NCBI GenBank assembly: GCA_965248515.1
Contig: CBDFJU010000003.1
Span: forward strand, 975,254-1,039,253
Direction: 5' to 3'
From: Dehalococcoidia bacterium
Lineage (GTDB): Bacteria; Chloroflexota; Dehalococcoidia; SHYB01
Length of the DNA stretch: 64,000 bases
Positions 1,995 through 54,313 of the stretch are shown piece after piece (position 1 is the stretch's first letter; the number at the start of each line of letters is the position of its first letter). Under the pieces are notes generated by a model. That model was not told the DNA's origin and did not search any database. It was given only the letters and a program-made list of their open reading frames with translations. Made by a program: the position numbers and the translations under genes.

Positions 1995-2009
1995 ACGAGC
2001 CTCCCTCCC

Positions 2010-3640: not shown

Positions 3641-3641
3641 G

Positions 3642-3746
3642 CTGTGAACACGAGGTCGACGCCATATACGTTGATGAGCCGTCGGTGGTCATGCGGTGCC
3701 AGGTAGGGCATGTGGCTGTTGAGCCAGTGCGACTACGTGGACACCG
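3642..3746 (+). repeat. Imperfect direct repeat, copy 2, immediately after the SDR stop.
   Basis: See copy 1. The two copies flank the SDR gene. Confidence 0.55.
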
Positions 3747-3799
3747 TCTTGACCAGGACCCCTTTGCTGCATTGGACCACAATTCATTCGGAGGGAGTT

Positions 3800-5282: not shown

Positions 5283-5301
5283 TCTCAGGTGGACCCCATC
5301 A

Positions 5302-15545: not shown

Positions 15546-15560
15546 CGCTGGTCCTCCTCG

Positions 15561-15863: not shown

Positions 15864-15935
15864 CAGCCCCTGTTAGAATCCGACGCATCCGGGCTAAGGC
15901 GTTTGCACAACCCGGTGTCAAGGGAGCTTGGGAAA

Positions 15936-37264: not shown

Positions 37265-37510
37265 TTGACGGTACGTATCAATCGCGGAGACGGGGAGTAG
37301 TAGAGGAAACCGGGTCCCGTGAGAGTCGGGGGTCGGAGCGACCCGACGGCACAGGTCCTTGAACTCGCCCCCGAGCGACCGGGCTGAAACTCGAGTAGGT
37401 CCGGCGGGCAAGCCCGTTACAGCGAACGAGAGCTCCGCTTCTGGCGGGGAACAAGGGTGGTACCGCGGGATGCAATCCCGTCCCTTAACGCAGGGGCGGG
37501 ATTTTTTGGT
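37265..37510 (+). promoter_or_regulatory. T-box riboswitch leader upstream of ilvB.
   Basis: T-box sequence aacaAGGGTGGTACCGCGgga at 37450-37470, followed by a terminator hairpin atcccgtccc/ggggcgggat plus a T-run (37475-37509). Possible CUC specifier (gaaCUCg). Confidence 0.6.
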
Positions 37511-39271: not shown

Positions 39272-39819
39272 GTACCAACCACATCCATCAGCACACCATA
39301 ACCGCCCAGGTCATGGACCATCCGGGCGTCCTGACCAGGATCGCCAGCATGTTCCGTCGGCGCGGCTTCAACATCGCGAGCCTGTCGGTCGGCCAGAGCG
39401 AGATTCCCAACCAGTCGCGGATGACCTTTGTCGTCGATGCCGACAACGATACCATCGTCGATCAGGTCACCAAGCAGCTGCGCAAGATCATCGAAGTCGT
39501 CAAGGTCAACGATCTGAGCGAAGAAGACGTCGTGGCCCGAGAGCTGGCGCTGGTCAAGGTCCGCGTGCCGTCCTCCGAGGCCAGGTCGGAGATCATCCAG
39601 ATCGTCGAGCTCTTCCGCGCCAAGATCGTCGATGTCGGCGCCGACTCGGTGATCATCGAGGTCACCGGTGACGAAGACAAGATCCAATCGCTCCTGATGC
39701 TGGTGAAGGGGTTCGGCATCTCGGAGATTATGCGCACGGGCCGGGTAGCCGTTGCCCGCGGCAAAAAGACGTCCTTGAAAGCCCGGGGCGCCAACGGCAA
39801 GCGCCCCAGCGGCGGCTAG
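39268..39819 (+). CDS. ilvN: Acetolactate synthase small (regulatory) subunit.
   Basis: ACT domain. ATGA overlap with the ilvB stop. The listed 382 aa ORF is an in-frame upstream extension. Confidence 0.85.
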   Translation: MSTNHIHQHTITAQVMDHPGVLTRIASMFRRRGFNIASLSVGQSEIPNQSRMTFVVDADNDTIVDQVTKQLRKIIEVVKVNDLSEEDVVARELALVKVRVPSSEARSEIIQIVELFRAKIVDVGADSVIIEVTGDEDKIQSLLMLVKGFGISEIMRTGRVAVARGKKTSLKARGANGKRPSGG

Positions 39820-39859
39820 GCAAGCGGCAGGGGACCGAGATTCCCAGAGGAGATCGAAG

Positions 39860-40189
39860 ATGAAAAGCGTCGGGGCTGAGCATGTCACGACCGTGCGACC
39901 AGGAGATTGCCAGCCAATCCGCTTCTGGATGGGTGACGCCATAAGTGCGGACGAGCAATGTCGGGGTCCCAATGGTCTGCACGGTCGTCACTATGGTAGC
40001 TACTGGCGAGTCCACAGGGACCTACATGACCCTCGATACGAGCCTGTTCAACATCTTCTCAAAGAAGCCCCCGGATGGGGCACGTTCTGGGCTGCTGCAT
40101 TGGGAGCGGTGGCCGGTGCCAGTTGGTTGGCCGCGTCGGCGATTCACCGCAGGACGGAAGCGAACCCATCCCCTCGATTGTCTGAGTAA
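39860..40189 (+). CDS. Small hypothetical membrane-anchored protein inserted between ilvN and ilvC.
   Basis: GAGGAGAT RBS. C-terminal hydrophobic helix TFWAAALGAVAGASWLAASAI. Confidence 0.4.
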   Translation: MKSVGAEHVTTVRPGDCQPIRFWMGDAISADEQCRGPNGLHGRHYGSYWRVHRDLHDPRYEPVQHLLKEAPGWGTFWAAALGAVAGASWLAASAIHRRTEANPSPRLSE

Positions 40190-40198
40190 GGAGACACC

Positions 40199-41212
40199 AT
40201 GGCAACGGTTTACTACGACGACGATGCCGATCTGAGCCTGCTCGACGGGAAGAAAATCGCCGTCATCGGCTACGGCAGCCAGGGCCACGCCCATTCGCTG
40301 AACCTGAAGGATTCCGGCTGCGACGTTGTCGTCGGCCTCTACGAAGGCTCGAAGAGCAAGGAGAAGGCCGAGGCTGAAGGGCTCACCGTCAAGAGCGTCG
40401 CCGACGCTTCTAAAGAGGCCGACATCGTCATGGTGCTGCTTCCCGACACCGTCCAGCGCGACGTTTACGACGGCGAGATCCGGCAAGGACTGGAGCCGGG
40501 CAACACCCTGATGTTCGGCCACGGGTTCAATATCCACTACAAGCAAGTCGTGCCACCCGACTTCGTCGACGTCAGCATGATCGCACCCAAGGCGCCGGGA
40601 CATCGGATGCGCGAGGTCTACAAGGAAGGGTTCGGCGTCCCCGGGCTGCTCGCCATCCACCAGGACCCCACCGGCAACGCCCAGGCCAACGGTCTGGCCT
40701 ATGGCAAGGGCGTCGGCTGCACGCGCGCCGGAGTTCTGGCCACGACGTTCCTCGAAGAAACCGAGACCGACCTCTTCGGCGAGCAGACTGTCCTCTGCGG
40801 TGGCGTTTCGTCGCTGGTCAAGACAGCCTTCGAGACCCTCGTCGAGGCGGGCTACCAACCCGAGTCAGCCTATTTCGAGACACTGCATGAGCTCAAGCTG
40901 ATCGTCGACCTGATGTACGAGGGCGGGCTGGAGTACATGCGCTACTCCATAAGCGACACCGCCGAGTACGGCGACTACACCCGAGGTCCCAGAGTCGTCA
41001 ACGAGAGCGTGCGCAAAGAGATGCGCAAGATCCTGGGAGAAATCCAGGACGGCTCTTTCGCCAGGGAGTGGATCGCCGAGTGGCGCGAAGGCGCGACGAA
41101 CTTCAACGCGCTACGGAAAAAGAACAAAGAGCATCAGGTTGAGAAAGTCGGCGTCGAGCTCCGCGCGATGATGCGAGGACTGACCAAGACCAGAGACAAG
41201 GGGTCAAAGTAG
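40199..41212 (+). CDS. ilvC: Ketol-acid reductoisomerase.
   Basis: [26 protein letters not shown] site. Confidence 0.95.
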
Positions 41213-41393
41213 CGGCGTAGCGTCGCTGAGGCGTTCCCATGGCTTGCATGTCATCCCGATCTCGAGTTCACCATCTTGCCCGGTTCTCAATGAGGACTCG
41301 GGCCAGCCTCCTGCTCCCCTGTGGGGGAGAAGCGTAGCGCCATATCGCGGGCGGCGGATTGGGGTTCTCAGGAGGCAGGCTAAGAGGTCCATC

Positions 41394-42953
41394 ATGAGCG
41401 AAGATAACAACGTAACTATTTTCGATACGACCCTGCGCGACGGCGAGCAGGCAGCCGGTGCCACGATGACCGTCGATCAGAAGGTCGAGATTGCGCATCA
41501 ACTCGACAAGCTGGGTGTCGACGTCATCGAGGCCGGATTTCCCGTCAGCTCCCCCGGCGAGCTTGCCGCGGTGCAGCGCATCGCCCGGGAAGTCGAGCGT
41601 CCAATCATCTGCGCACTCTCCCACGCCAACAACAAAGCCGTGGACGCCGCTTGGGACGCGGTGAAGGGCGCCAAGCGCAAGCGCATTCACATCTTCCTGT
41701 CCACGTCCGAGATACACATGTACCATCAGCTCCACAAGGACCGGGAAGAGATCCTCTCCATGGCCTGTGAGAACGTGGCCCGGGCCCGCGGCTACTGCGA
41801 CGACGTCGAGTTCTCCCCCATGGATGCAACCCGCAGCGACCTGGAGTACCTCCACCGGTTGCTCGAGGCAACCATCGACTCCGGCGCCACCACCGTAAAC
41901 ATTCCGGACACCGTCGGCTACACGACCCCAGAGGAGTTCTATCAGCTCATCCGGGGCATCTTCGAGAACGTGCGCAATATCGACAAGGCGCGTATCTCCG
42001 TCCATTGCCACAACGACCTGGGCATGGCGGTCGCCAACAGCCTGGCGGCGGTGCGGGCCGGCGCTCGGCAGATCGAATGCACCATCAACGGCATCGGCGA
42101 GCGGGCCGGCAACGCTTCGCTCGAAGAAGTCGCCATGGCGCTCAAGACCCGCGCTGACACCTACGACCTCGATACCAACATCGACACGATCCAGATCACC
42201 CGCACGAGCAAGCTCGTCAGCCAGCACACCGGGTTCGCTGTCCAGCCGAACAAGGCCATCGTCGGCAAAAACGCCTTCCGTCACGCCTCCGGCATTCACC
42301 AGGACGGCATGATGAAGCACCAGACGACGTACGAGATCATGGAGCCGCAGAGCGTCGGCCTGAGCGGCTCGACCCTGGTGCTGGGCAAGCTCAGCGGGCG
42401 CCACGCCTTTCAGAAGCGCATGGGAGAGATCGGCTTCCCGTTGGAGGGCGACGAGCTCGCCGCGGCGTTCGAGAGTTTTAAGGAAGTGGCCGAGGTGAAA
42501 AAAGAGGTCAGCGACGCCGACCTCGAGGCCCTGGTGGCCGACCAGCGTCGGAGCATGTCCGATGCCTACGCCCTCGAGAGCGTTCAGGTGGCCTGCGGCA
42601 CCGACGAAGTTCCGACCGCCACGGTGCGGATCAAAGGGCCGGACGAGAAAGACTTCGTCAATACGGCTAGCGGGACCGGGCCGGTCGACGCCGCCTACAA
42701 GGCGATCGACCAGGTCATCGGCGTCGACGCCCGCCTCGAAGAGTTCAGCGTCCAGTCCATAACCGAGGGTATCGACGCCATTGGCGACGTGATGGTCCGC
42801 ATCGAGAGCCAGGGCATGACCTACGTCGGCCGGGGCGCCTCGACCGATATCATCGTTGCCGCCGCCAAGGCCTACGTGAATGCCCTGAACCGGCTCATCT
42901 CCGAGCAAAGCCTTCCTCCTGCCGCCACCCAGGCGGCCAAGGTCGGGCCCTAG
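41394..42953 (+). CDS. leuA: 2-isopropylmalate synthase.
   Basis: [12 protein letters not shown]-terminal signature. C-terminal LeuA dimerisation/regulatory domain. Confidence 0.9.
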
Positions 42954-43092
42954 CGCTGCCAACCGATCGATCACGTCGAAGGGCGGGGGCTCGCCCCCGC
43001 TCTTCGAGAGTCCCCTCGGTGAGCTTGTCGGCAACGGATAGGCTATCCTGACACCTGCTCGAGCCGGTGCAGAAACTCAAAGGACCAAGACC

Positions 43093-44490
43093 ATGCCCAA
43101 GACGATGTTCGAGAAGATCTGGGACGCCCATGTCGTCCACGAAGAGCGCGGCCAGCCGGCCCTCCTCTATATCGACCTCCACCTCGTCCACGAGGTCACG
43201 TCGCCCCAGGCCTTCGATGGCCTTCGCATGACCGGGCGCAAGGTCCGCCGGCCCGACCTGACCGTCGCGACAGCCGATCACAACGTGCCCACGACGGCAC
43301 GGTCGCTTCCAATCGCGGACCCGATCTCCGCGCAGCAGCTACAAGCGCTGAGCGATAACGCCCGCGAGTTCGGCTTGACGCTTTATGACATCAACAGTCC
43401 CAACCAGGGCATCGTCCACGTCATCGGCCCCGAGCAGGGCTACACGCAGCCAGGGCAGACCATCGTCTGTGGGGACAGCCATACCGCGACCCACGGTGCC
43501 TTCGGGGCCATCGCCTTCGGCATCGGCACCTCGGAAGTGGAGCACGTCCTCGCGACCCAATGCCTGCTTCAGGCCCGGCCGCGGATTATGGAGATCCGCA
43601 CTAACGGTTCTCTCCCCAACGGGGTCACGGCCAAAGACCTAGTCCTCGCCATCATCGGCGAGATCGGCGTTGATGGCGCGACCGGCTACGTGATCGAGTA
43701 CACCGGTCAGGCAATCCGTGAGCTTTCCATGGAAGGTCGCATGACCGTCTGCAACATGTCCATCGAGGCTGGGGCTCGAGCCGGCATGGTCGCGCCCGAC
43801 GACACCACCTTCGCCTACCTGGAAGGACGCCGCGAGGCGCCGCAGGGGAGCGAGTTCGCCGCCGCCGTCGAGCGCTGGCGGGCCCTTGCGACAGACCAGG
43901 GCGCCGTCTTCGACCGTCTGGTCGAGATCGATGCCGCCGCGTTGGCCCCCTTCGTCACCTGGGGCACCAACCCGGGGATGGTTGCGCCCGTGACCGAGCG
44001 CGTGCCCGACCCCGCCTCCTTCGCAGCGGCATCCGATAAGAGCGCGGCCGAGCGGGCCCTCGAATACATGGGCCTTACCGCCGGCACGCCGATCTCGGAT
44101 GTCGCCATCGACCGGGTGTTCATCGGCTCGTGCACCAACGGACGAATCGAGGACCTTCGCGAGGCCGCCGGCGTGGTGAAAGGCAGAAAGATAGCCGCGA
44201 ACGTGCAGGCCCTCGTGGTGCCCGGCTCGGCCAACATCAAGCGCCAGGCAGAGGAAGAGGGACTGGACCAGGTGTTCATGGAGGCGGGCCTCGACTGGCG
44301 CGAGTCGGGCTGCTCGATGTGCCTCGGCATGAACCCGGACATCCTCGACGAAGGCGAACGTTGCGCCTCCACCTCCAATCGCAACTTCGAGGGGCGTCAG
44401 GGTAAGGGCGGTCGCACCCACCTCGTCAGCCCCGCGATGGCCGCCGCCGCCGCCATCGCCGGCCATTTTGTTGACATAAGGGACTGGTAG
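43093..44490 (+). CDS. leuC: 3-isopropylmalate dehydratase large subunit.
   Basis: Aconitase-family Cys ligands, [15 protein letters not shown]. Confidence 0.95.
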
Positions 44491-44637
44491 CACCTGTTCC
44501 TACGAGGATGAACGCACTACGCTGGTTAGTCCGATACCCCCTCCCCTGACTTGCCACGACCGGTTAGCCTGGACCCAGGCTGCGAGAACGCCGGACGGTC
44601 GGGCGACTAGCCCCGATGTCCGCGTGGGGAGGACGCT

Positions 44638-45543
44638 ATGCGGCGGAAGTTGCGGTGGAGCGTCTCGATTGGGCTGGTCCTGGTTGTCCTCGCCTACGGG
44701 CTTATCTCGTTCCTCATCGCCCAGGGCTTGACCAAAGCCGACCGCAATCCACAGGAGGATCATCCCTCCAACCACGGACTCCTGTTCGAGGACGTGGCGT
44801 TTCCGACCCGTGGCGGTGGCCCTTCGCTCAGGGGCTGGTACGTGGCCGGCGACCTCGCCAAGCCACACGTCATCTTCGTCCATGGGCTCGGCTCCAAGCG
44901 GTCTGGTGATAAGGCTGTCGAGATCGCGGCGGGACTCGCCGAGCGCGGATATAGCGCCCTCTTGTTCGACCTGCGGGGCCACGGCGAGTCTCCAGGCGGT
45001 AAGGTCTCCGGCGGCTTCTTCGAGCGGCTCGATGTCCTGGGCGCTTTCGACTACCTCAGGGAACGCGGCGTGCCGTCCAAGCGGATCGGCGTCCTCGGCT
45101 TCTCGATGGGCGCCGCGACGACCGCCTTTGCCGCCGGCGAAGAGCCCGCCCTTCGCGCCGTGGTCCTCGACAGTCCTTACGCGAACGCCAGGTCCTTCAT
45201 TAGCCAGGAGGCAGCTAGAAAGACCGTGCTCCCCAAGTGGCTCGTTCCCATCTTTGCGCCCACCTCCGAGCTCATGGCCGCCACGATCTACGGCATCAAC
45301 GTGGGCGCGATGGTCCCCGAGGAGGCCGTCCAGCGCATCGACTACCCTGTCCTCGTCGTGCATGGGACCGGGGACACCCGCATCCCTCACGAGCATGGGG
45401 AGCGTGTGCACGCCGCGGCGAGGCGTGGCAGCGAGCTTTGGCTCGTCCCGGACGTCGATCACGTCGACGCTTTCATCGCGTACCCCGGCGAGTACATCGA
45501 TCGCGTCGCCCGCTACTTCGATAGCCGTCTGAACGTCAGCTAG
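44638..45543 (+). CDS. Alpha/beta hydrolase (membrane-anchored, S9/ABHD-like) inserted between leuC and leuD.
   Basis: N-terminal TM helix, GFSMGAAT nucleophile elbow. Confidence 0.75.
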   Translation: MRRKLRWSVSIGLVLVVLAYGLISFLIAQGLTKADRNPQEDHPSNHGLLFEDVAFPTRGGGPSLRGWYVAGDLAKPHVIFVHGLGSKRSGDKAVEIAAGLAERGYSALLFDLRGHGESPGGKVSGGFFERLDVLGAFDYLRERGVPSKRIGVLGFSMGAATTAFAAGEEPALRAVVLDSPYANARSFISQEAARKTVLPKWLVPIFAPTSELMAATIYGINVGAMVPEEAVQRIDYPVLVVHGTGDTRIPHEHGERVHAAARRGSELWLVPDVDHVDAFIAYPGEYIDRVARYFDSRLNVS

Positions 45544-45601
45544 GACTGTAGCACAGGGTCGCGGCGCTCTGACCCTGACAAGCCCAACAAGACCGGAGCG
45601 G

Positions 45602-46498
45602 TCATGCTGACAGCCGTCGCTTCGCTTCTTCGTAGACGTCCCGCGGGAGCGGCCCTTTGACGGCCGCAGCCAGGTTCTCCTCCAGATGAGCCGGGTTGGA
45701 TGTGCCTACGATAGTCGTGTCGAGGTCTGGATGGGTGATCGTAAACCGGAGCATGAACTCCATCTTGCTCATGCCGTCGAGAAACTCGTCCATCTTCCTC
45801 TCATCCCAGAGTCTCCAGACATCCTCAGACCCCTGACTTTCACCGGGGATTCCGCGGGCCACGCCGCCCCGAATGATGGTCCCAGCCCCCGCCCGTGCGG
45901 CCTGAGAGATGACATCCTCATGTTCCCGCTTTAGACCCGAATACGGGATCTGGAAGGCGTCGAAGACGCCCATCGATATGTGATCGCCCAGATTGGGCAG
46001 GATCGAAGAGGAGCCGATAAAGCGGACCTTGCCCTCCCGTTTCAGGTCCATGAGCGTCTCGATTGCCCCCTCTTGCCGCAACACTTCCTGCGATGGGCTG
46101 GCATGGAACTGCACGAGGTCCAGGTGGTCGGTCCTCATCCGTTTCAGACTCTGGTTCACCCCTTCGACAATGTTCTCGCGGTCAAAGGTGTGAACGAAAC
46201 GGTCTTTTTCCGGGACTGACGTCGCGTCCACGACGCAGCCGCACTTGGAGGCCAGAAAATACTCGTTTCGGCGGTGGGAGATGTACTCGCCGATGTTTGC
46301 TTCGCTTTCGCCGTAGTCGATGGAAGTGTCGATGTAGTTGATACCCGCATCCAGTACGGCGTTCAATACCTTCTCCGCCTGCTCACGGGTCGACGCTCTG
46401 CGGGGCGAGCCTGGGCCGCGTAGCTCCATCGCACCGAAGCCGAGGACCGTCACCTCGAGTCCTGTTCTGCCGAGCCTTCGTTTCGGCAAGTCCGCCAT
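45602..46498 (-). CDS. Aldo/keto reductase.
   Basis: LGFGAMEL..., AKR catalytic tetrad context. Start MADLPKRRLGRTG with an AAAGGGGGGAG RBS. Confidence 0.8.
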   Translation of the reverse strand: MADLPKRRLGRTGLEVTVLGFGAMELRGPGSPRRASTREQAEKVLNAVLDAGINYIDTSIDYGESEANIGEYISHRRNEYFLASKCGCVVDATSVPEKDRFVHTFDRENIVEGVNQSLKRMRTDHLDLVQFHASPSQEVLRQEGAIETLMDLKREGKVRFIGSSSILPNLGDHISMGVFDAFQIPYSGLKREHEDVISQAARAGAGTIIRGGVARGIPGESQGSEDVWRLWDERKMDEFLDGMSKMEFMLRFTITHPDLDTTIVGTSNPAHLEENLAAAVKGPLPRDVYEEAKRRLSA

Positions 46499-46634
46499 TG
46501 CTCCCCCCTTTCGCCGGAACCAAGACCGGCGAGTCATGATACTCCAGCGCGATTTCCTTCGATAGGATTGAGCGAGAACCGAGCGCCAATTCCCGCTATA
46601 CTGTAGTCTCACCTCGCCTCATCCAGGAGTACCC

Positions 46635-47243
46635 ATGGAGCCGTTCGTCAGACACACCGGACTCGTTGCCCCCATGGACCGGGTCAACGTCGACACCGAC
46701 CAGATCATGCCCAAGCAGTTCCTCAAGCGCATCGAGCGCACGGGATTCGGCGAGTTCCTCTTCTTCGATTGGAGGCGCCTCCCGGACGGCTCGCCCAACC
46801 CCGACTTCGAGCTGAACGACCCCGCTTACCAGGGCGCCAGCATCCTCGTCGCGGGACGCAACTTCGGCTCCGGGTCATCGCGAGAGCATGCTCCGTGGGG
46901 GCTGCTCGAATACGGCTTCCGCGTCATCATCGCGCCGAGCCTGGCCGACATCTTTCGGAACAACTGTTTCCAGAACGGCGTGCTCCCCATCGTCATCGAC
47001 CAGGGCGTCGTCGACCGGATCATGAAGAAAGCCCAGGAGAAGACAGGCTATCGCCTCACGGTCGACCTCGAGGCTACTGAGCTTTCCGACGACACGGGGC
47101 TCTCCGAGCCGTTCGAGGTCGATGAGTTCCGGCGCTACTCCCTGCTCAACGGCCTCGACGACATCGGGCTGACGATGCACCACGAGGATAAGATCGCAGC
47201 TTACGAACGGAGTCGTTGGCCGGCGCGGGCCTCCGGTAACTAG
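46635..47243 (+). CDS. leuD: 3-isopropylmalate dehydratase small subunit.
   Basis: Aconitase swivel domain. 202 aa. Confidence 0.9.
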
Positions 47244-47249
47244 GTCTTC

Positions 47250-47969
47250 TTGGCCGTCGCCCGCGACCCTGAACACGCCGAGACCAGCGCCCTCCACGCC
47301 CTTGTCGACTTCAACGACAAGGACGTCCTCGAGATCGGCTGCGGTGACGGGCGATTGACCTGGCGATACGCTAACCGAGCTGCGTCCGTGATCGCGATCG
47401 ACCCTGACGAGGAAGAAATCGCCTCGGCTCGGGCCGAAACCCCTGAAGCGCTTCGCTCCGTGGTCACCTTCCAGGTCGCCGACGTCATCAAGGTCGACCT
47501 GCCACCTGTCGCCTATGACGTCGTGCTCGTCTCCTGGTCCTTGTGATGAATCACCATCGGGGGTCTCGGTGAGACCCTGAGCAAGATGCACGCGGCGCTG
47601 CGGCCGGGTGGCGTAATGCTGGATATCCATCCGGAGGCCAGGCACTCCCGCATCGAGGTGCATTCAGGCTCGCGGGTCGAAGACGTCGGAAACCTCGACG
47701 AGTCGGAATTCCTGCCCGATATCGACGCCGCGGAAAAGGTCCTCGCCTCGGCCGTATCGGCGGAGCGCTTCGTCGTCGAAGAGCAAAGACGGTTCGACTT
47801 TCTCTACCATTTCGCCGGTGTCGATGAGTACAAGGCGTTTCTCGTCGACGAGGAGTGGGGGAACGTCGATCCGGCTGTCGAGTCGAGGGCCCGCGAGCTC
47901 CTCGCGTCTGCGGGAGGCGAGTTGGTTATGCGGGAGCCGGTCCGAGCCGCGCGGCTGAGGCGAGTCTAA
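47250..47969 (+). pseudogene. Class I SAM-dependent methyltransferase interrupted by two consecutive in-frame TGA codons (47544-47549).
   Basis: Motif I DVLEIGCGDG. Post-motif II region ALRPGGVMLDI continues in the same frame after TGA TGA. Confidence 0.6.
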
Positions 47970-48061
47970 CGGACTCAGCCCTTAGCGTGTCCGGGCGAAC
48001 TGTGGCAAGATGTGCGGACGGTCGGCCGGACCGAGGTTGAGCACGGTCGATGGAGGACCCC

Positions 48062-49192
48062 ATGGCAAAACACGGCGTCGTATCAGCCGACTCCCATATC
48101 GACCTGTGGGCCCTGCCGTTCGATACCTTCACCTCCCGAGTCCCCAAGGCGTGGCGCGAGCGTGTCCCCCACGTTGTCCAGGGGCCGGAGGGGGTCGAGT
48201 GGGTCGCTGGCGAGCGGGGCGAGTTCAAGTTGGGCCAGGCGGGCACTCGGTCCATCTCCAATGCCCGCATGGAGCGAATGTTGCAAGTTGGCTTCGACCC
48301 CAAGGACCGCCGGCCCGTCGATCCTGAGCTCCGGATCGAGGACCAGGAAAAAGACGGCGTCGATGGCGAGGTCATCTACGGCATCTTCTCGCTATCCGAC
48401 TTGATGAAAGACCGCGACGCCGCGGCGATCGCCTTCCGGGCCTACAACGAATACGTGGCCGAGTTCTCGCAGGCCCAACCGGACCGTTTCTGCTGCCTCG
48501 GGATCATCCCCGGCAACACCGTGGAGGCCGCAATCGCCGATCTCGAGCATATCGCCGAGTTGGGCCTCCGTGGAGCCCAGTGGGGCTACCTCGACACCGT
48601 GAAACCCATCTGGCACCCCTACTGGGAGCCGTTCTGGGCCGCCGCCGCCGAGCGCCAGGTCGTTATCTCCCTCCACGCGCCCGTGTTCGGCAGCACCACC
48701 ACGGTGGGCCTGCTGCCGCACCTCGAGCGCCATCCGGCCTCCTACGCCGCTTTCCTCTGCGTCTTCCCAATGCAGCTCGACGAAGCGGTGACGTCCGTCA
48801 TCTTTAGCGGGACCCTCGAGCGCAACCCAGCGCTTAAGGTCGTGCTCACCGAGAGTGGCGTCGGCTGGATCCCCTACCTCCTCGAGCGCATGGACCACGA
48901 ATGGCACGACTACTACGAGGTCGGCGACTGGAAGTCGCTCATCGACACCGAGCCCAGCCAACTCTTCCGGGATCATATATACGCGACCTTCCAGACCGAC
49001 ACGGTGGGCCCAAGGCTCGCGGCCGATTTCTGCCCCGACAATTTTATGTGGGGCTCCGACTACCCGCACCCCGACGGCGTTTGGCCCGACTCCAAAGAGC
49101 ACATTGGCAAGTCGCTCGCCGGGCTGAGCGACGACATGCGGAGGAAGATCGTCAACGACAACGTCCGGGCCGTGTATCGAATGGAGGGGTAG
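48062..49192 (+). CDS. Amidohydrolase-2 family protein.
   Basis: SADSHIDLW N-terminal metal site, GSDYPHPDG. Confidence 0.8.
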   Translation: MAKHGVVSADSHIDLWALPFDTFTSRVPKAWRERVPHVVQGPEGVEWVAGERGEFKLGQAGTRSISNARMERMLQVGFDPKDRRPVDPELRIEDQEKDGVDGEVIYGIFSLSDLMKDRDAAAIAFRAYNEYVAEFSQAQPDRFCCLGIIPGNTVEAAIADLEHIAELGLRGAQWGYLDTVKPIWHPYWEPFWAAAAERQVVISLHAPVFGSTTTVGLLPHLERHPASYAAFLCVFPMQLDEAVTSVIFSGTLERNPALKVVLTESGVGWIPYLLERMDHEWHDYYEVGDWKSLIDTEPSQLFRDHIYATFQTDTVGPRLAADFCPDNFMWGSDYPHPDGVWPDSKEHIGKSLAGLSDDMRRKIVNDNVRAVYRMEG

Positions 49193-49195
49193 GCC

Positions 49196-50314
49196 ATGGA
49201 CTTCACCATCGCGGTCCTGGCTGGCGACGGTATCGGACCCGAGGTAACGGCCCAGGGCACGCGGGTGCTGGACCGCGTCGGCGAGCTGTTCGGCCACCGC
49301 TTCGACTATCGCGAGGGCCTGATGGGCGGGATCTCGATCGACCGCCTCGGCACCGCGCTTCCGGACGAGACGATCGACATCTGCCGTGGCGCCGACGCCG
49401 TGCTCCTCGGCGCCGTGGGCGGACCCAAGTGGGACGATCCCGCGGCCAAGACCCGCCCTGAAGACGGACTGCTCCGCATCCGCAAGGAGCTTCGTCTCTA
49501 CGCCAACCTTCGCCCCGTCACGAGCTACCCGCAGCTCGTCGATTCGACCCCGTTCAAGCCCGAGGTGCTCGAAGGCCTCGACCTCCTGGTCATCCGAGAG
49601 CTCACCGGGGGCCTCTACTTCGGTAAGCCCAAGAAACGCTGGAGCACGACGCGCGGGCGCCGCGCTGTGGATAGCATGGCGTACTCCGAGCAGGAGGTCG
49701 ACCGAGTGCTGCGCCTGGGCTTTCGCCTGGCGCGGGAGCGCAAGGGAAAGCTCACGTCGGTAGACAAGGCCAACGTGCTCGAGACTTCCCGGATGTGGCG
49801 CGAGATCGCGGTCGAGATCGGCAAGGAGAACCCCGACGTCGAACTCAACCACATGCTGGTGGACACCTGTGCGATGAACCTCGTGCGCAGCCCCGCCGAA
49901 TTCGACGTGATCGTGACCGAGAACACCTTTGGCGATATTCTCACCGACGAGGCCGCCGTCCTCGCCGGCTCCATGGGCATGCTGCCCTCGGCAAGCCTTG
50001 GCGGCGCCAACCTCGCCACGGGTTGGGACCAGAACGGCGGCCGCAGCTTCGGTCTCTACGAGCCGATCCACGGCTCGGCCCCCGACATCGCCGGCCAGGA
50101 CAAGGCCAACCCCCTGGCCACGGTCCTTAGCATCGGCCTCATGCTCCGCCTCTCGCTGGGGCTCGATACCGAGGCTTCCGTTGTTGAGGGCGCCGTGCAG
50201 GACGTCCTCGCCGCGGGACACCGCACCCCGGACATCGCCAAACAGGGCGAGCCCGTCGTGGGGACCGAAGCGATGGGGGCCCTCGTCGTCGAGGCTCTCC
50301 GCCGTCCGGCCTGA
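49196..50314 (+). CDS. leuB: 3-isopropylmalate dehydrogenase.
   Basis: [22 protein letters not shown]-type motif ([10 protein letters not shown]). Confidence 0.9.
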
Positions 50315-50409
50315 GCAGCGGCCCGTCTTCTCCCGTCCAGGTCGATTGCTCCAGTCCTTTCCTGAAGGCTATACTGGATTATTGGCGTTTCGTGAAAGGA
50401 CGCGGACTC

Positions 50410-51999
50410 ATGGCGGCCACCGAGCTTTACGACACGACGCTTCGCGACGGCACTCAGGCCGTCGGTATTTCTCTATCCGTCGAGGACAAGCTGCGCATCG
50501 CCGAGAAGCTCGATGGCCTCGGCATCAAATACATCGAAGGCGGCTGGCCCGGCTCCAACCCGAAAGATGCTGAGTTCTTCGAGCGCGCCAAGGACCTCGA
50601 CCTCAAGCACGCCGCCATCGTCGCCTTCTCCAGCACGCGAAGGGCTGGCGGACAGGTGGAAACGGACCCCAACATCGTCGCCCTCCTCGACTCCGGGGCG
50701 CCGGTTGTCACCCTCGTCGGCAAAAGCTGGGACCTTCACGTGAAAAACGTCCTCGAGACCAGCCTCGAGGAAAACCTGAACATGATCGCCGACTCCATCT
50801 CGTATCTGAAATCGAAGGGCCTGTCCGTCATCTACGATGCCGAGCACTTCTTCGATGGCTATAAGGCCGACCCGGAATACGCATTGCAGACGGTCAAAGT
50901 CGCGAGCAAGGCCGGGGCCGAGTGCATCGTCCTTTGTGACACGAACGGCGGCTCACTGCCCGCCGAGGTGACCGCCATCGTCGAAACCGTTGCCGGAGCG
51001 GTGGATACACCTCTGGGGATCCATGCCCACAATGACGGTGATCTGGCGGTGGCCAATAGTCTCGCGGCTGTGGCCGGAGGCGTTGTCCAGGTGCAGGGCA
51101 CAATCAACGGGATCGGTGAGCGCTGCGGCAACGCCAACCTGGTGTCCGTTATCGCCAACCTCAAGCTCAAACAGGGGATCGACTGCGTCAGTGACGAGCA
51201 ACTCGCCAACTTGAAGGACGTCGCCAGCTTCGTCGGCGAGCGCGCCAACCAGTCCCCTAACCCCTATCAGCCCTTCGTTGGCGACAATGCGTTCAGCCAC
51301 AAGGCCGGACTGCACGCCTCGGCGATGGCCAAGGACGAGCAGAGCTATCAGCACATCGATCCCACGAAGGTGGGGAACGTCAAGAGCGTGGTCGTCTCCG
51401 AGCTGTCGGGACGAAGCAACGTCCTTGCCAAGGCCAAGGAGATAGGAATCGACCTTTCGGCGCAAAAGGACGTGACGAAGCGCGTGGTCGACGAGATAAA
51501 GGATCTCGAAAGCCGCGGTTACGTCTTCGAAGGCGCCGAAGCCTCGTTCGCGCTGCTGTTGCGCCGGGCCATGCCCGGGTACAAGGCTCCCTTCGACCTG
51601 GTCGACTTCATGGTCGTCGCCGAGCGCCGCCGCCGCTCATCGACCCGCAACGACAGCGACGAGTCCCTCGCCGAGGCCATGGTCAAGGTGCGGGTCGACG
51701 GGGTCCTGATGCATACCGCCGCCGAGGGCGACGGCCCCGTCAACGCCCTGGACCAGGCGCTGCGCCGGGCCCTCGTCCAGTTCTATCCGAACCTCTCAGC
51801 CGTGAGGCTCACGGACTACAAGGTGCGAATCGTCGACGAGACGGCCGGCACCGAGGCTGCCGTTCGGGTCCTCATCGACTCCTCGGACCATGAGCGTCAC
51901 TGGAGCACGGTCGGCGCTTCCACCAACGTCATCGATGCGAGCTGGTTCGCCCTGGCCGACAGTCTCGAGTACTGGCTCATTAGCCAGCCGGACGCGTAG
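50410..51999 (+). CDS. cimA: (R)-citramalate synthase / LeuA-family HMGL-like enzyme.
   Basis: LYDTTLRDGTQ, LeuA_dimer C-terminal domain. Product inferred from the family, not assayed. Listed ORF starts at 50392 (GTG). Confidence 0.7.
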   Translation: MAATELYDTTLRDGTQAVGISLSVEDKLRIAEKLDGLGIKYIEGGWPGSNPKDAEFFERAKDLDLKHAAIVAFSSTRRAGGQVETDPNIVALLDSGAPVVTLVGKSWDLHVKNVLETSLEENLNMIADSISYLKSKGLSVIYDAEHFFDGYKADPEYALQTVKVASKAGAECIVLCDTNGGSLPAEVTAIVETVAGAVDTPLGIHAHNDGDLAVANSLAAVAGGVVQVQGTINGIGERCGNANLVSVIANLKLKQGIDCVSDEQLANLKDVASFVGERANQSPNPYQPFVGDNAFSHKAGLHASAMAKDEQSYQHIDPTKVGNVKSVVVSELSGRSNVLAKAKEIGIDLSAQKDVTKRVVDEIKDLESRGYVFEGAEASFALLLRRAMPGYKAPFDLVDFMVVAERRRRSSTRNDSDESLAEAMVKVRVDGVLMHTAAEGDGPVNALDQALRRALVQFYPNLSAVRLTDYKVRIVDETAGTEAAVRVLIDSSDHERHWSTVGASTNVIDASWFALADSLEYWLISQPDA

Positions 52000-52093: not shown

Positions 52094-52405
52094 ATGTTTG
52101 GAGCGATACCCGGACAGTTCATCTTCCCACTGATTATCCTGGGGGCAGGCATTTTCTTCTGGAAGATCATCCCGCCGCCATGGCGGGCATGGGCCATCGC
52201 GTCGTGGGTCGGGGGCCTGGGACTGGGCCTGGTAGCCCTGGTCTGGGCGGTAGCTCAGGCCTTTGGCGGAGGCCGCGGCGACGACAATGCGCCTGTAGCT
52301 CTAGCCCTCGTGGCGGCTGGGATGGTCGTCTGGCCGTGGCTGTTCGTCCTGGTCCGCGGGGTCATCTGGGCGGCGCGGAAGCTTCAGGAAGCCTCGAGTC
52401 GCTAG
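52094..52405 (+). CDS. Small hypothetical membrane protein.
   Basis: GAGGAGG RBS, three hydrophobic helices. Confidence 0.45.
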   Translation: MFGAIPGQFIFPLIILGAGIFFWKIIPPPWRAWAIASWVGGLGLGLVALVWAVAQAFGGGRGDDNAPVALALVAAGMVVWPWLFVLVRGVIWAARKLQEASSR

Positions 52406-52827
52406 TCCTTGACCTCGAGCGCCGCGTCTTCGACCTGCTCGTCGGCGATTCGAAAGGCCCGCAACACAGGGTCCGCCGGTTTGGCGAGGGACACGATTAC
52501 ATAGAGGAATTCGAACCAGTCCGAGGGCGGTGCCAGCTTGATGTCCGTCACCGAGGGGTACGCCTCGCTGAACGTGTGTGAGTGGTAGAACCCGAGGACG
52601 CTCATGCCGGCCTCGTCCGTCTCCCGGAAGATGCGGCTCATGTCCTGGGGATCGATCGTGTACTTCACCGGGCTTTGGTCGACGTTGTTCGCGCGATAGA
52701 CCCGCTCCACCCTGGTCTCACTTCCGGCGAGGATGCCGCAGCATTCGTTCGGGGCTTCGGCACGGGAGTGGTCGATCATCTCGTCGACCTGTGTTTTCGT
52801 GAGCTCCAGTTTGCGCATTGGGTCCAT
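52402..52827 (-). CDS. JAMM/Mov34/MPN metalloprotease (Mec+/QbsD-like).
   Basis: E..CGIL...FYHSHTFSEAYPSVTD matches E-x(n)-HxH-x7-S-xxD exactly. Confidence 0.75.
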   Translation of the reverse strand: MDPMRKLELTKTQVDEMIDHSRAEAPNECCGILAGSETRVERVYRANNVDQSPVKYTIDPQDMSRIFRETDEAGMSVLGFYHSHTFSEAYPSVTDIKLAPPSDWFEFLYVIVSLAKPADPVLRAFRIADEQVEDAALEVKD

Positions 52828-52906
52828 TCTAGGCGGCGTCGACGGTGTTGCAATACAAACGCCCCGTCGAAGGGGCGCATGGGTGGCTTGGCGGTCGCGC
52901 TGAACG

Positions 52907-53959
52907 CTACTCTTGCACGGTGATCTTTACCGGCGTGCCGTCAACGACCTCTCCCACGATGACCGGGCTCTCGACTCCGCTTCGTTTCATCTCCTCGATG
53001 AGAGCCTCGGCCTTGCCGGCGTCGACGGAAACGAGCAGGCCCCCGGAGGTTTGCGGGTCATACAAAACCCGATAGGCCTCGGGATGGACTCCGGGTGTCC
53101 AGCTTACTGCTTCGTCATAATACGTCCGGTTGCGCTTCGTCCCGCTGGGCGACAGGCCTCGCTCCGCGGTCAGCTCCCATGCCCCGGCCATTATCGGAGC
53201 CTGCGAGAAGAAAACGCGCGCGGAGGCGTTGCTCGCGTGGAGCATGCCATGAAGGTGACCGAGAAGTCCGAAGCCGGTCACGTCGGTACAGGCGTTGACG
53301 CCCACCCGAACGCTCGCCTCGGAGGCGGCCCGGTTGAGCGTTGCCATGTGGCGCACGGCTTCGTCGAGCACGTCCGCTGGCGCCTCGTCGATCTTCCCCG
53401 CGGTGGTAACGATCCCAGAGCCGAGAGGCTTGGTCAGCACCAGCATGTCGCCGGGCCGCGCACCCGCGTTGGTGAGCTGTTCTCCGGGACGCAGAACCCC
53501 GGTGGCCGCGAGCCCGTACTTCGGCTCGGCGTCGACAATGGTGTGGCCGCCCACAATGACCGCGCCGGCCTCGTGAACCTTGTCTGAGCCGCCCCGCAAA
53601 ATCTCCTTCAGGATCCCCTTCGGCAGGTCGTCCGGGAAGGCGACGATGTTGAGCGCAGTCAGAGGCCGCGCGCCGGTGGCATAGATGTCGCTCAGCGAGT
53701 TGGCGGCGGAGATGAGCCCATACGTGTATGGGTCGTCGACGACCGGTGGGAAGAAGTCCACGGTCTGGACCAACGCCACGTCTTCACTGAGGCGGTAGAC
53801 CGCTGCGTCGTCTCCGGTCTCGATTCCGACCAGCAAGTTAGGGTCAACTGTCTTCGGCAGTTGACTCAGCAAGTCGCTCAGGTCCCCCGGACCGAATTTA
53901 GCGCCTCAGCCGCCTGAGTGGGCTAACGACGTGAGCCGTATGCGTTGCTCAGTGGTCAT
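52907..53959 (-). CDS. selD: Selenide, water dikinase (selenophosphate synthetase). Sec-containing: TGA at 53908-53906 read as Sec.
   Basis: The listed ORF (52907-53872) lacks the N-terminus. In-frame upstream: ATG at 53959, then MTTEQRIRLTSLAHSGG-U-GAKFGPGDLSDLL..., giving the SelD active-site Sec/Cys position. A hairpin GGTCCGGGGGACC follows the UGA. Confidence 0.8.
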
Positions 53960-54313
53960 TTGTCGCCTGCGTTCTCTCCCTCGGACATGAACCCGGACAT
54001 GAAACGGTCGATTCCTCGCCGCTGCTGAGATTATAAACGATTTCTATGCGGCGTATCACGATCCGCTATGCCATCTTGCCGGTCGCTGGGGTACACGTCA
54101 TTCGATGCGTTGGGTTGAGGGAGGATTCATGCACGATACCGAGGTTAGGAATCGAGGTTCTGCTGGGCGTCAACGTACCCTGTACATTCATCGAATTTCC
54201 CCTTGACACCCGCCGATTGTGAAGGTATTCTCAAAGCGCGATTCACAGGGTAGAGCCCTCCGTTCCACGGTAGTAGCGACGCAACCCGTCCCGGCGGCTT
54301 TCCAGGAGGAGTC

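What the first reader, a model, noticed from the sequence alone, without database searches (positions are those of the whole stretch)
52402..53959. SelD is itself a selenoprotein whose N-terminus was missed, and it sits beside a Mec+-type JAMM protease
Extending the listed ORF upstream through TGA reaches an ATG 17 codons earlier. The UGA falls exactly at the SelD active-site Sec/Cys position (…HSGG-U-GAKFGP…), followed by a hairpin GGTCCGGGGGACC. The adjacent JAMM (perfect HxH-x7-S-xxD) resembles the Mec+/QbsD enzymes that release sulfur from ThiS/MoaD/CysO-type carriers. No carrier gene is visible here. A JAMM-SelD pairing hints at a sulfur or selenium carrier-protein pathway.
Basis: partly seen in the sequence, partly recalled or inferred. 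Interest (0 to 1): 0.65.

Follow-up and report, generated by a model that had tools for sequence, protein, structure and literature searches.

The report
Selenocysteine-type SelD beside a JAMM peptidase
The gene for the enzyme that activates selenium (SelD) itself uses a selenocysteine encoded by an in-frame TGA, which is a well-known arrangement, and the small JAMM metalloprotease next to it is a conserved neighbour in some Chloroflexi, but nothing here shows that the two work together.

Summary
On the minus strand, 53959..52907 encodes a 350-residue SelD. Its codon 18 is an in-frame TGA (53908..53906) at the catalytic Cys/Sec position, and a GGTCC-GGG-GGACC hairpin lies 12 nt downstream. All 20 related SelD-JAMM loci carry TGA at this codon, with conserved coding sequence upstream. 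Other SelDs have TGC/TGT in the same column. Sec-type SelD is one of the most widespread bacterial selenoproteins, so the "missed N-terminus" is a routine ORF-calling artefact.

The neighbour (52827..52402) is a complete JAMM/MPN+ metallopeptidase. In 22 other Chloroflexota-type loci its 42-54 % identical homologues lie within 10 kb of a MoaD/CysO-like carrier, as in cysK - Ubl::E1 - cysO - cysM - JAMM. This supports a Mec+-like role, cleaving after the Gly-Gly of a ubiquitin-like sulfur carrier.

The selD-JAMM pairing, often cysK-like - selD - JAMM, is conserved in a subset of Dehalococcoidia-like genomes. No carrier, E1 or CysM lies beside any of them. Synteny also extends to unrelated genes, and the SelD-linked JAMMs show no distinguishing residues. 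A selenium carrier-protein pathway therefore remains speculation. The organism decodes Sec: the window holds a second candidate selenoprotein of the UGSC family.

The parts
52907..53959 (-). selD, selenide,water dikinase: 350 codons plus a TAG stop. The true start is ATG 53959, not the TTG at 53872.
   Evidence: Translation. AIRS and AIRS_C domains. TIGR00476 371.6 bits (cut-off 125) and NF002098 331.3 bits (cut-off 299). Aligned with E. coli and Aquifex SelD structures, with the catalytic Lys, Asp and Asn positions conserved.
53906..53908 (-). In-frame TGA, codon 18, read as selenocysteine at the active-site Cys17 (E. coli) position.
   Evidence: TGA is at the same codon in 20 of 20 SelD-JAMM loci. 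Across 97 SelD loci the column holds 51 TGA, 44 TGC and 2 TGT.
53881..53893 (-). Candidate SECIS core hairpin GGUCC-GGG-GGACC, 12 nt after the UGA. A possible 4-bp lower stem is CGCU (53903..53900) paired with AGCG (53878..53875).
   Evidence: Sequence. Identical or near-identical in 10 related genes despite divergent neighbouring codons, using the rare Gly codon GGU (7 % of Gly codons here). The same hairpin or compensated variants occur in distant Sec-type SelDs, and it is broken in a Cys-type SelD with the same peptide. Folding energy is not significant on its own.
53843..53865 (-). Second hairpin inside selD: GUCAACUG-CCGAAGA-CAGUUGAC, an 8-bp stem starting 40 nt after the UGA. It is an alternative or auxiliary structure.
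   Evidence: The stem is largely kept in L087 while the loop and the encoded residues differ. It lies outside the usual SECIS distance, and the loop does not begin with G.
54030..54059 (-). Promoter-like site (GTGATA-18-TATAAT) upstream of selD.
   Evidence: This block is conserved in L087, while the rest of the 5' region diverges until about 18 nt before the ATG.
52859..52878 (-). G+C-rich, terminator-like hairpin in the 79-bp selD-JAMM spacer.
   Evidence: The hairpin is conserved in L087 while the flanking spacer sequence is not.
52402..52827 (-). JAMM/MPN+ (M67) metallopeptidase, 141 aa. The start is more likely the second ATG at 52818, giving 138 aa.
   Evidence: Prok-JAB E 1.8e-23. E28, H82, H84, S92 and D95 are invariant. 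Closest solved structures are 2KKS, 2KCQ and PfJAMM1 5LDA. Homologues and L087 start at the position of the second ATG.

Best explanation
Two adjacent genes of ordinary kinds.

(1) selD encodes a selenophosphate synthetase whose catalytic residue 18 is selenocysteine. Ribosomes start at ATG 53959. With SelB and Sec-tRNA(Sec), they read UGA 53908..53906 as Sec, probably guided by the small conserved hairpin GGUCC-GGG-GGACC that begins 12 nt downstream. The enzyme then makes selenophosphate from selenide and ATP for Sec-tRNA synthesis. Its own synthesis therefore depends on its product.

(2) The downstream gene encodes a complete zinc JAMM peptidase. It belongs to the same family that, in related Chloroflexota, sits in cysK - Ubl::E1 - cysO - cysM - JAMM clusters. 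Its most likely job is Mec+-like: hydrolysing the bond after the C-terminal Gly-Gly of a ubiquitin-like sulfur carrier (a CysO-cysteine adduct, or a carrier precursor or fusion) that is encoded elsewhere in the genome.

The adjacency is an inherited piece of gene order shared by a subset of Dehalococcoidia-like genomes, often as cysK-like - selD - JAMM. It is best read as selD lying within or next to a sulfur/cysteine-metabolism neighbourhood. It is not evidence that the JAMM acts on SelD or on a selenium carrier.

Shown: gene identities, the Sec codon, conservation of the pairing, and absence of a carrier nearby. Inferred: SECIS function of the hairpin, the JAMM substrate, and any co-regulation.
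For: SelD identity and the Sec position.

TGA conserved with coding sequence on both sides in 20 of 20 SelD-JAMM loci. Sec-type and Cys-type SelDs align in the same column.

Nucleotide conservation resumes about 18 nt before ATG 53959 in the 79 %-identical relative L087.

Hairpin evidence. GGU-CCG-GGK-GAC is invariant in 10 genes, although GGT is only 7 % of Gly codons. Compensated variants occur in L124 and L136, the identical hairpin occurs in distant L116, L097 and L098, and it is broken in Cys-type L112. A different, stronger hairpin with compensatory changes occurs in the sister groups.

The organism decodes Sec: the window holds a UGSC-family candidate selenoprotein with an in-frame TGA at 27114.

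JAMM: motif and family. Homologues lie in carrier-containing clusters such as L014, which reads Rrf2 - cysK - MoaD::MoeB fusion - cysO - cysM - x - JAMM. The Mec+ mechanism is taken from PMC3227635. SelD-linked and CysO-linked JAMMs are interleaved in the tree and differ at only one conservative column.

Synteny extends to ACIII and cimA/leuB.
Against: No selA, selB or tRNA-Sec lies in the 64 kb (for the tRNA; Pfam scans covered about 30 of the ORFs). The recoding machinery is therefore inferred, not seen.

The window's hairpin is only 4-5 bp. Its folding energy is no better than shuffles (z -0.1, -0.48), and no Rfam SECIS model matches.

The JAMM's substrate is not visible. The selD-JAMM gap is tight (8-15 bp by called-gene coordinates in L001, L002, L003 and L086), and the order is kept across three JAMM clades of about 45-50 % identity. 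That is more persistence than pure chance adjacency usually shows, so a functional link is not excluded.

SelD-adjacent CysK-like enzymes have an altered substrate loop in 9 of 11 cases, against 0 of 40 elsewhere. This hints at a specialised module.
Confidence: 0.72

Rival explanations
1. The cysK-like - selD - JAMM cluster is a dedicated selenium-mobilising module. A CysK-like PLP enzyme handles selenocysteine or selenide, a ubiquitin-like carrier encoded elsewhere carries S or Se as a (seleno)carboxylate or Cys/Sec adduct, the JAMM releases the product and recycles the carrier, and SelD takes the selenide. In the window the PLP enzyme has been lost or moved.
For: The pairing is conserved in 20 loci, with short intergenic gaps in most. 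The three-gene form is found with different upstream flanks, ACIII in some loci and RtcB/archease in another. SelD-adjacent CysK-like proteins have GN(M/S)G instead of the otherwise invariant TSGNTG loop in 9 of 11 cases against 0 of 40, and the one tested scores below the CysK cut-off (323.7 against 350.95). In L092, SelD follows E1 - cysO - cysM - rhodanese - TusA-like. Rhodanese is a frequent JAMM neighbour.
Against: No carrier or E1 lies in any of the 20 loci or in the 64-kb window. The window, L087, L003, L023, L031 and L043 lack the PLP enzyme. The JAMMs show no SelD-specific residues. Synteny also includes unrelated genes. SelD's presence is already explained by Sec decoding. In the window a conserved terminator-like hairpin separates selD from the JAMM. 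No paper found links SelD with a JAMM.
Confidence: 0.12
2. The TGA is a genuine stop, from a sequencing error, a pseudogene or a short upstream ORF, and SelD starts at the downstream TTG (53872).
For: Mechanical ORF calling gives the TTG start. The window's SECIS-like hairpin is thermodynamically unremarkable. No read data are available.
Against: The same TGA occurs in 20 of 20 related loci and 51 of 97 SelD loci, and the 17 upstream codons are conserved as protein (RLT.LA..GG). A TTG-start protein would lack the Gly-rich loop that carries the catalytic Sec/Cys and Lys. NCBI annotates the 350-aa form for a homologue.
Confidence: 0.02
3. The JAMM belongs to a ubiquitin-like conjugation or defence system (a Cap3-like JAB of CBASS/E1-E2 systems, or a desampylase removing protein modifiers), not to sulfur-carrier metabolism.
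For: There are weak PADLOC JAB matches (best E 9.6e-7, 26 bits). The best NCBIfam match is the Haloferax desampylase model (97.3 bits). In the L014 cluster, the E1's N-terminal domain passes the SAMP1 cut-off (63.7 against 60) and the free carrier falls just below it (58 against 60).
Against: The desampylase score is below its cut-off of 130. No E1/E2, cyclase or effector lies nearby. Homologues sit next to cysteine synthases and rhodanese, not defence genes.
Confidence: 0.05

Closest known systems
Selenocysteine-containing SelD (for example Aquifex aeolicus SelD, PDB 2YYE/2ZOD; Haemophilus and clostridial Sec-SelDs)
   Same: Same family, with scores above the equivalog cut-offs. Sec lies at the same N-terminal loop position, followed by the catalytic Lys (G-U-x-x-K). 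The Aquifex enzyme even shares ...AAKVGPGDL... downstream. UGA is followed by a nearby stem-loop.
   Different: The residue two positions after Sec is Ala here (U-G-A-K), not the second Cys of E. coli (C-G-C-K). The candidate SECIS is a very short 4-5 bp hairpin that differs from the longer hairpin used by sister Chloroflexota SelDs. None of this is outside known variation.
Mec+ (Rv1334) of the M. tuberculosis mec-cysO-cysM cysteine pathway
   Same: A standalone JAMM of about 140 aa with a complete E...HxH...S..D motif. Close homologues (42-54 % identity) lie in loci with a MoaD/CysO-like carrier, a CysM-like synthase and an E1. One homologue is named 'CysO-cysteine peptidase' by its source.
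   Different: In this window and 19 related loci the neighbour is SelD, and no CysO, CysM or E1 is nearby. Direct similarity to Rv1334 and CysO-Cys hydrolysis were not tested.
Other carrier-processing JAMMs: QbsD (quinolobactin), DRJAMM of Deinococcus (cleaves a MoaD-MoaE fusion; PMC8832034 abstract), HvJAMM1 desampylase
   Same: Same fold and catalytic motif, and cleavage after the Gly-Gly of a ubiquitin-like sulfur carrier. The L014-type clusters contain a MoaD::MoeB fusion with an internal ...AIAGG junction that such an enzyme could cut.
   Different: No fused or extended carrier lies near this JAMM. It scores below the desampylase equivalog cut-off (97.3 against 130).
Previously proposed SelD-associated genes (YedE, YedF/SirA-like, LysR-like; NifS-like and NADH-oxidase fusions)
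   Same: The general theme of SelD lying beside sulfur-trafficking genes. One related locus (L092) has rhodanese and a TusA/SirA-like gene directly upstream of SelD.
   Different: A JAMM/Mov34 neighbour is not mentioned in the comparative-genomics papers searched (0 occurrences of JAB, Mov34 or MPN in PMC5322559 and of JAB or Mov34 in PMC9312934).

Membership tests
SelD (selenide, water dikinase) | AIR-synthase-related N- and C-terminal domains, and a score above the curated equivalog cut-offs | tested here: met
   PF00586 and PF02769. TIGR00476 371.6 bits against 125, and NF002098 331.3 bits against 299.
SelD (selenide, water dikinase) | N-terminal Gly-rich loop with catalytic Cys/Sec followed by Lys (E. 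coli Cys17, Lys20), and conserved metal/ATP-binding Asp and Asn residues | tested here: met
   AHSGG-U-GAK aligns with HGAG-C-GCK of 3U0O. The DDAAVY, VDFF, ANSLSD and TDVTGFG blocks are conserved. These are present only if translation starts at 53959.
Sec-type SelD (selenoprotein) | In-frame UGA at the catalytic position, conserved among orthologues and replaced by Cys codons in others | tested here: met
   20 of 20 SelD-JAMM loci carry TGA. Across 97 loci the column holds 51 TGA and 46 TGY.
Sec-type SelD (selenoprotein) | Sec-decoding machinery (selA, selB, tRNA-Sec) in the same genome | not testable with these tools
   No tRNA lies in the window. No SelA or SelB was found among the roughly 30 window ORFs scanned. 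The rest of the genome is unavailable. Indirect support comes from a second in-frame-TGA gene of the UGSC (seleno)protein family at 26814..27401.
Bacterial SECIS element | Stem-loop shortly downstream of the UGA, with the apical loop about 16-37 nt from the UGA and a G in the loop (bSECISearch-type consensus, recalled from memory) | tested here: inconclusive
   The geometry fits: the hairpin is 53893..53881 with a GGG loop 17-19 nt after the UGA. Nucleotide-level conservation, compensated variants in other Sec-SelDs and loss in a Cys-type SelD support it. Against it, the stem is only 4-5 bp, the energy z-scores are -0.1 and -0.48, there is no covariation within the window's own group, and no Rfam hit was found.
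JAMM/MPN+ metallopeptidase (Pfam Prok-JAB, MEROPS M67) | Catalytic Glu plus H-x-H-x7-S-x2-D zinc site | tested here: met
   E28, H82, H84, S92 and D95 are invariant in 34 sequences. PF14464 scores 83 bits against a cut-off of 25. PDB relatives are 2KKS, 2KCQ and 5LDA.
Mec+ (CysO-cysteine peptidase) | Encoded with its partners CysO (a ThiS/MoaD-like carrier ending in GG) and CysM | tested here: not met
   None lies in the window or in any of the 20 SelD-linked loci. The feature is met only for homologues elsewhere: 22 genome-scan JAMM loci have a carrier-type protein within 10 kb, for example L014.
Mec+ (CysO-cysteine peptidase) | Hydrolyses the CysO-cysteine adduct (PMC3227635) | not testable with these tools
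   This is a biochemical property.
Desampylase (HvJAMM1, NF041370) | Score above the equivalog cut-off | tested here: not met
   97.3 bits against a cut-off of 130.
CBASS/E1-E2-associated JAB (Cap3-like) | Strong match to defence-system JAB models, and a neighbouring E1/E2 and effector | tested here: not met
   The best PADLOC JAB match is 26 bits. The neighbours are selD, ACIII and leucine-biosynthesis genes.

The most novel reading that the evidence does not exclude
In a subset of Dehalococcoidia-like Chloroflexota, a conserved cysK-like (altered GN(M/S)G substrate loop) - selD(Sec) - JAMM cassette is a dedicated selenium-supply module. The PLP enzyme and a ubiquitin-like carrier encoded elsewhere would generate or hand over selenide (for example via a carrier-Sec/Cys adduct that the JAMM cleaves) for SelD. 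This would be a carrier-protein route of selenium delivery not described for any organism. The window would hold a reduced two-gene version.
Probability: 0.1. Interest if true: 0.65.

Novelty: new member of a known kind. Interest (0 to 1): 0.3.

Why it matters
For annotation: this selD must be called from ATG 53959 with TGA read as Sec, because the TTG-start model lacks the catalytic loop. The window also holds a second split selenoprotein gene (UGSC family, 26814..27401), so TGA-aware gene calling is needed for this lineage.

For biology: how selenide reaches SelD specifically is still an open question. A conserved selD-JAMM order, often cysK-like - selD - JAMM, in Dehalococcoidia-like bacteria is a small lead that I did not find described in the papers searched. 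It would matter only if the JAMM or the variant CysK-like enzyme proves to act in selenium delivery. The present evidence favours inherited gene order inside a sulfur/cysteine neighbourhood.

Tried and rejected
- Rfam, at gathering scores on the whole window and at E<=10 on 53780..53990: no SECIS family. The only hit at gathering score was a T-box elsewhere in the window.
- Single-sequence folding of the region after the UGA: not better than shuffles (z -0.1, -0.48). The case for a SECIS therefore rests on comparison, not energy.
- Sec-type against Cys-type SelDs, folding z-scores of nt 10-54: -1.20 against -0.63, one-sided Mann-Whitney p = 0.037. The direction is right but the signal is weak, and the sequences are not independent.
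- Exact look-up of the window's JAMM in the assembly index: not on record.
- Search for carriers: GG-ending ORFs and a CysO/MoaD HMM against all six frames of the window and all loci. Nothing was found in the window or in any SelD-linked locus.
- tblastn of CysK/CysM and rhodanese against the window: no hit.
- Pfam scan of about 30 other window ORFs for selA, selB, E1, ThiS or YedE/F: none. They are ilv/leu genes, ACIII, lipid and CoA enzymes, and mobile-element genes.
- Residues specific to SelD-linked JAMMs: only F80 against Ile. Neofunctionalisation of the JAMM was therefore rejected.
- PADLOC: only weak generic JAB matches. A defence role was rejected.
- Literature: no paper linking SelD to a JAMM, Mov34 or desampylase was found. 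The first search was badly designed, using word-start matching.
- An attempt to confirm from the literature that a Thr-to-Met change in the CysK Asn loop marks beta-cyanoalanine synthases found nothing usable. That resemblance remains a recollection only.
- I ran no further search on looking for CysO in the same genomes. MoaD-type carriers are expected there anyway for molybdenum-cofactor synthesis, so a hit would not have been decisive.
Full report
**What is in the sequence**

On the minus strand, 53959..52907 translates to a 350-residue protein with a single internal stop: MTTEQRIRLTSLAHSGG*GAKFGPGDLSDLLSQLPK.... The mechanical ORF list starts it at TTG 53872. The in-frame TGA is codon 18 (53908..53906), and the ATG lies 17 codons upstream (53959..53957). 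The sequence GGTCCGGGGGACC occupies 53893..53881, 12 nt after the TGA.

Seventy-nine bases downstream, 52827..52402 encodes a 141-aa protein with NECCG and FYHSHTFSEAYPSVTD.

**SelD identity and the Sec codon**

With Cys substituted for the stop, the protein has both AIR-synthase-related domains. It exceeds the curated equivalog cut-offs for SelD: TIGR00476 at 371.6 bits against 125, and NF002098 at 331.3 against 299. The TIGR00476 match begins at residue 8, inside the extension.

Against solved structures it aligns end to end with E. coli SelD (3U0O) and Aquifex SelD (2YYE/2ZOD). The TGA falls on E. coli Cys17, the following Lys on Lys20, and the Asp/Asn blocks (DDAAVY, VDFF, ANSLSD, TDVTGFG) are conserved. 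A TTG-start protein would lack the catalytic loop.

The comparative evidence is decisive:
- Every one of 20 loci that carry SelD next to a JAMM homologue has TGA at this codon. The upstream peptide is conserved (RLT.LA..GG-U) and an ATG lies a similar distance upstream.
- In a wider sample of 97 SelD loci the same column holds 51 TGA, 44 TGC and 2 TGT.
- In the closest relative (L087; SelD 79 % identical), the 5' region is diverged, but conservation resumes about 18 nt before the ATG and runs through the TGA.
- NCBI already annotates a 350-aa product for one homologue (L001).

This part of the finding is real but already known. The "missed N-terminus" is the usual consequence of treating TGA as a stop.

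**SECIS**

Folding energy alone does not single out a structure. The 60 nt after the UGA fold no better than shuffles (z -0.1; z -0.48 for nt 10-54), and no Rfam family matches. Comparison is more informative.

- Ten related genes (window, L087, L023, L031, L043, L001, L004, L002, L084, L086) all read GGU CCG G(G/A)(G/U) GAC C at codons +5 to +9. Neighbouring codons vary freely. GGT supplies only 7 % of Gly codons in this window's genes, against 60 % for GGC.
- The same hairpin recurs in distant Sec-type SelDs (L116, L097, L098).
- Compensated variants occupy the same place: GGGCC/GGUCC in L124 and GGGC/GCCC in L136.
- The one Cys-type SelD with the same GPGD peptide (L112) uses GGC, which breaks the stem.
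- Sister Chloroflexota SelDs use a longer hairpin a few nucleotides further on, (A)GGACCUG-GUN-CAGGUCC(U) or CUGGCGCAG-GUY-CUGCGCCAG. It shows compensatory double changes: C-G to U-A in L006, and G-C to C-G in L065.
- As a group, Sec-type genes fold slightly better here than Cys-type genes (z -1.20 against -0.63, p = 0.037).

A second, stronger hairpin (53865..53843) lies further downstream than SECIS elements usually do.

**Does the organism decode Sec?**

No tRNA gene lies in the window, and I found no selA or selB among the ORFs scanned. A scan for in-frame TGA flanked by coding-like sequence did find a second candidate. ORF 26814..27401 (plus strand) has TGA at 27114 in the motif VGVGA-U-GSCTSCC. 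It matches NCBIfam's "UGSC family (seleno)protein" (E 5.8e-27, 94.5 bits, below the 125-bit cut-off). UGSC proteins are a known selenoprotein family. Lin et al. 2015 report that Chloroflexi have the Sec trait but not the selenouridine trait. That fits an ordinary role for this SelD in Sec-tRNA synthesis.

**The JAMM**

The protein is Pfam Prok-JAB (E 1.8e-23). E28, H82, H84, S92 and D95 are invariant across 34 homologues. Its closest solved relatives are the uncharacterised 2KKS and 2KCQ, and Pyrococcus JAMM1. Its best NCBIfam match, the Haloferax desampylase, is below cut-off (97.3 against 130). Defence-system JAB models match only weakly.

Homologues are almost all from Dehalococcoidia/Chloroflexota MAGs, which places the organism. 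Homologue N-termini and L087 suggest that the real start is the second ATG, at 52818.

**What the JAMM's relatives sit next to**

Of 80 genome loci holding a homologue (42-62 % identity):
- 12 have SelD immediately upstream.
- 22 have a MoaD/CysO-like carrier ending ...AGG within the 10-kb flanks, typically just before a CysM-like cysteine synthase that precedes the JAMM. An HMM also finds a second carrier domain fused to an E1 in many of these loci.
- Others have a two-domain rhodanese, or unrelated genes.

L014 shows the full form: Rrf2 regulator - CysK (435 bits, above cut-off) - MoaD::MoeB/MoeZ-type E1 fusion - CysO-like carrier - CysM-type synthase - small membrane protein - JAMM. This is the architecture of the mycobacterial pathway. 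There, CysM adds O-phosphoserine to CysO-thiocarboxylate, and Mec+ hydrolyses the CysO-cysteine adduct (PMC3227635).

Mec+ releases cysteine from the carrier, not sulfur.

**The selD-JAMM pairing**

Including metagenomic relatives, 20 loci have selD followed by the JAMM. By the gene coordinates called, the gap is only 8-15 bp in L001, L002, L003 and L086. Eleven SelD loci have a CysK-like gene directly upstream of selD. Nine of these are among the 20 SelD-JAMM loci. In the other two (L088, L109) no JAMM is seen. The window, L087, L003, L023, L031 and L043 lack the CysK-like gene.

Four observations argue against reading this as a pathway:
- No carrier, E1 or CysM-type gene occurs in any of the 20 loci or in the whole 64-kb window. 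The carrier cluster and SelD are mutually exclusive neighbours of the JAMM.
- The conserved block extends to functionally unrelated genes: the alternative complex III operon divergently upstream, and cimA/leuB convergently downstream. Local gene order is simply well preserved in this lineage.
- SelD-linked JAMMs fall in three clades interleaved with carrier-linked ones. They differ from the carrier-linked ones at a single conservative column, F80 against Ile.
- Among 80 SelD loci drawn from metagenomes, only the two Chloroflexota-like ones (L087, L090) have the JAMM. In the window and L087 the 79-82 bp spacer also holds a conserved terminator-like hairpin, so co-transcription is not assured.

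Three observations keep a functional link alive:
- The order persists across about 45-50 % JAMM identity.
- SelD-adjacent CysK-like proteins have GN(M/S)G in 9 of 11 cases, where all 40 other CysK/CysM sequences in these loci have TSGNTG.
- In L092, SelD follows E1 - cysO - cysM - rhodanese - TusA-like.

**Mechanism adopted**

SelD is a Sec-dependent selenophosphate synthetase serving selenoprotein synthesis. This part is shown, apart from the recoding machinery and the SECIS function.

The JAMM is a zinc peptidase that most likely cleaves after the Gly-Gly of a ubiquitin-like sulfur carrier encoded elsewhere: a CysO-Cys adduct, or a carrier fusion or precursor. This is inferred from family and synteny.

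Their adjacency is inherited gene order within a sulfur/cysteine neighbourhood. Any coupling, for example through selenium-dependent polarity at the UGA or shared regulation, is conjecture.

I put about 0.72 on this overall reading and about 0.12 on a genuine selenium/sulfur carrier module. The remainder goes to the minor rivals.

**Novelty and scores**

Sec-type SelD and standalone JAMM peptidases are both known kinds. This is a new member of each, from an uncultured Chloroflexota lineage. The conserved (cysK-like)-selD-JAMM order is not mentioned in the selenium comparative-genomics papers I could search. It is a modest lead, not a discovery. Interest is 0.3.

Noticed in passing
window 26814..27401 (+), TGA at 27114..27116: A second gene split by an in-frame TGA: ...DFMVVGVGA-U-GSCTSCCMHDG.... 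It matches NCBIfam NF041046 'UGSC family (seleno)protein' (E 5.8e-27, 94.5 bits, below the 125-bit cut-off). It is listed mechanically as two ORFs (26814..27116 and 27138..27401). The next gene (27408..28487, 359 aa) has no Pfam match.
   Followed up: partly
window 52859..52878 (-), and L087 about 4790..4810: A G+C-rich, terminator-like hairpin (GCGCCCCTTCGACGGGGCGT followed by TTGTATT) in the selD-JAMM spacer. It is conserved in the closest relative while the surrounding spacer is not. Relatives with 8-15 bp gaps have no room for it. Its role (terminator, attenuator or RNA-stability element) is unknown.
   Followed up: partly
window 52818 versus 52827 (-): The JAMM probably starts at the second ATG (MRKLELTK..., 138 aa), as in its homologues and in L087. 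A promoter-like TTGCAA-16-TAGAAT ends 7 nt before that ATG, which would give a leaderless mRNA, but this element is not conserved in L087.
   Followed up: partly
L001 3771..4676, L002 3798..4724, L004, L016, L065, L080, L084, L088, L109 (CysK-like genes directly upstream of selD): SelD-adjacent CysK-like enzymes have GN(M/S)G in place of the TSGNTG substrate ('Asn') loop in 9 of 11 cases. All 40 other CysK/CysM-type sequences in the fetched loci have TSGNTG. The L001 protein scores below the CysK cut-off (323.7 against 350.95). From memory only, a Thr-to-Met change in this loop is typical of beta-cyanoalanine synthases, which use cysteine as a substrate. This was not verified.
   Followed up: partly
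L014 5848..10396: A complete carrier-dependent cysteine cluster in a Dehalococcoidia MAG: Rrf2 - CysK - MoaD::MoeB/MoeZ-type E1 fusion (internal ...AIAGG junction) - CysO-like carrier - CysM-like synthase - 162-aa membrane protein - JAMM. The carrier-E1 fusion is itself a possible JAMM substrate.
   Followed up: partly
L092 10..4996: In another metagenomic contig a Sec-type SelD follows E1 (partial) - CysO-like - CysM-like - two-domain rhodanese - TusA/SirA-like protein (CPY motif). No JAMM was detected in the 418 bp available downstream.
   Followed up: no
window 53843..53865 (-): A perfect 8-bp inverted repeat, GTCAACTG-N7-CAGTTGAC, inside selD, starting 40 nt after the UGA. The stem is mostly kept in L087 although the loop and the encoded residues differ.
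   Followed up: partly
window 37278..37488 (+) and 37556..51999: A T-box leader (118.7 bits) precedes a branched-chain amino-acid gene series: acetolactate synthase-like, ilvC, leuA, leuC ... leuB, and a second HMGL-family synthase (cimA/leuA-like, 50392..51999) that converges on the JAMM.
   Followed up: no
window 54314..about 62000 (+): An alternative-complex-III-like operon is transcribed divergently from selD: a small membrane protein, a multihaem cytochrome, a molybdopterin-family subunit, an FeS subunit and NrfD-like subunits. The same arrangement is conserved upstream of selD or cysK in L001, L004, L023, L031, L043, L084 and L087.
   Followed up: no
window 1626..6518: Mobile-element genes: a resolvase fragment (1626..1994), an HTH protein, and an IS3-type transposase pair (6518..6234 and 6237..5302). 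The first roughly 22 kb has lower coding regularity, and several large ORFs there have no Pfam match (14019..15545, 15426..16865).
   Followed up: no
alignment A1 (JAMM homologues), window JAMM residues 27-31: All 34 aligned homologues have two adjacent cysteines next to the catalytic Glu (N-E-C-C-G). The nearest PDB relative, 2KKS, has N-E-A-C-G. This holds for both SelD-linked and CysO-linked members, and its significance is unknown.
   Followed up: no
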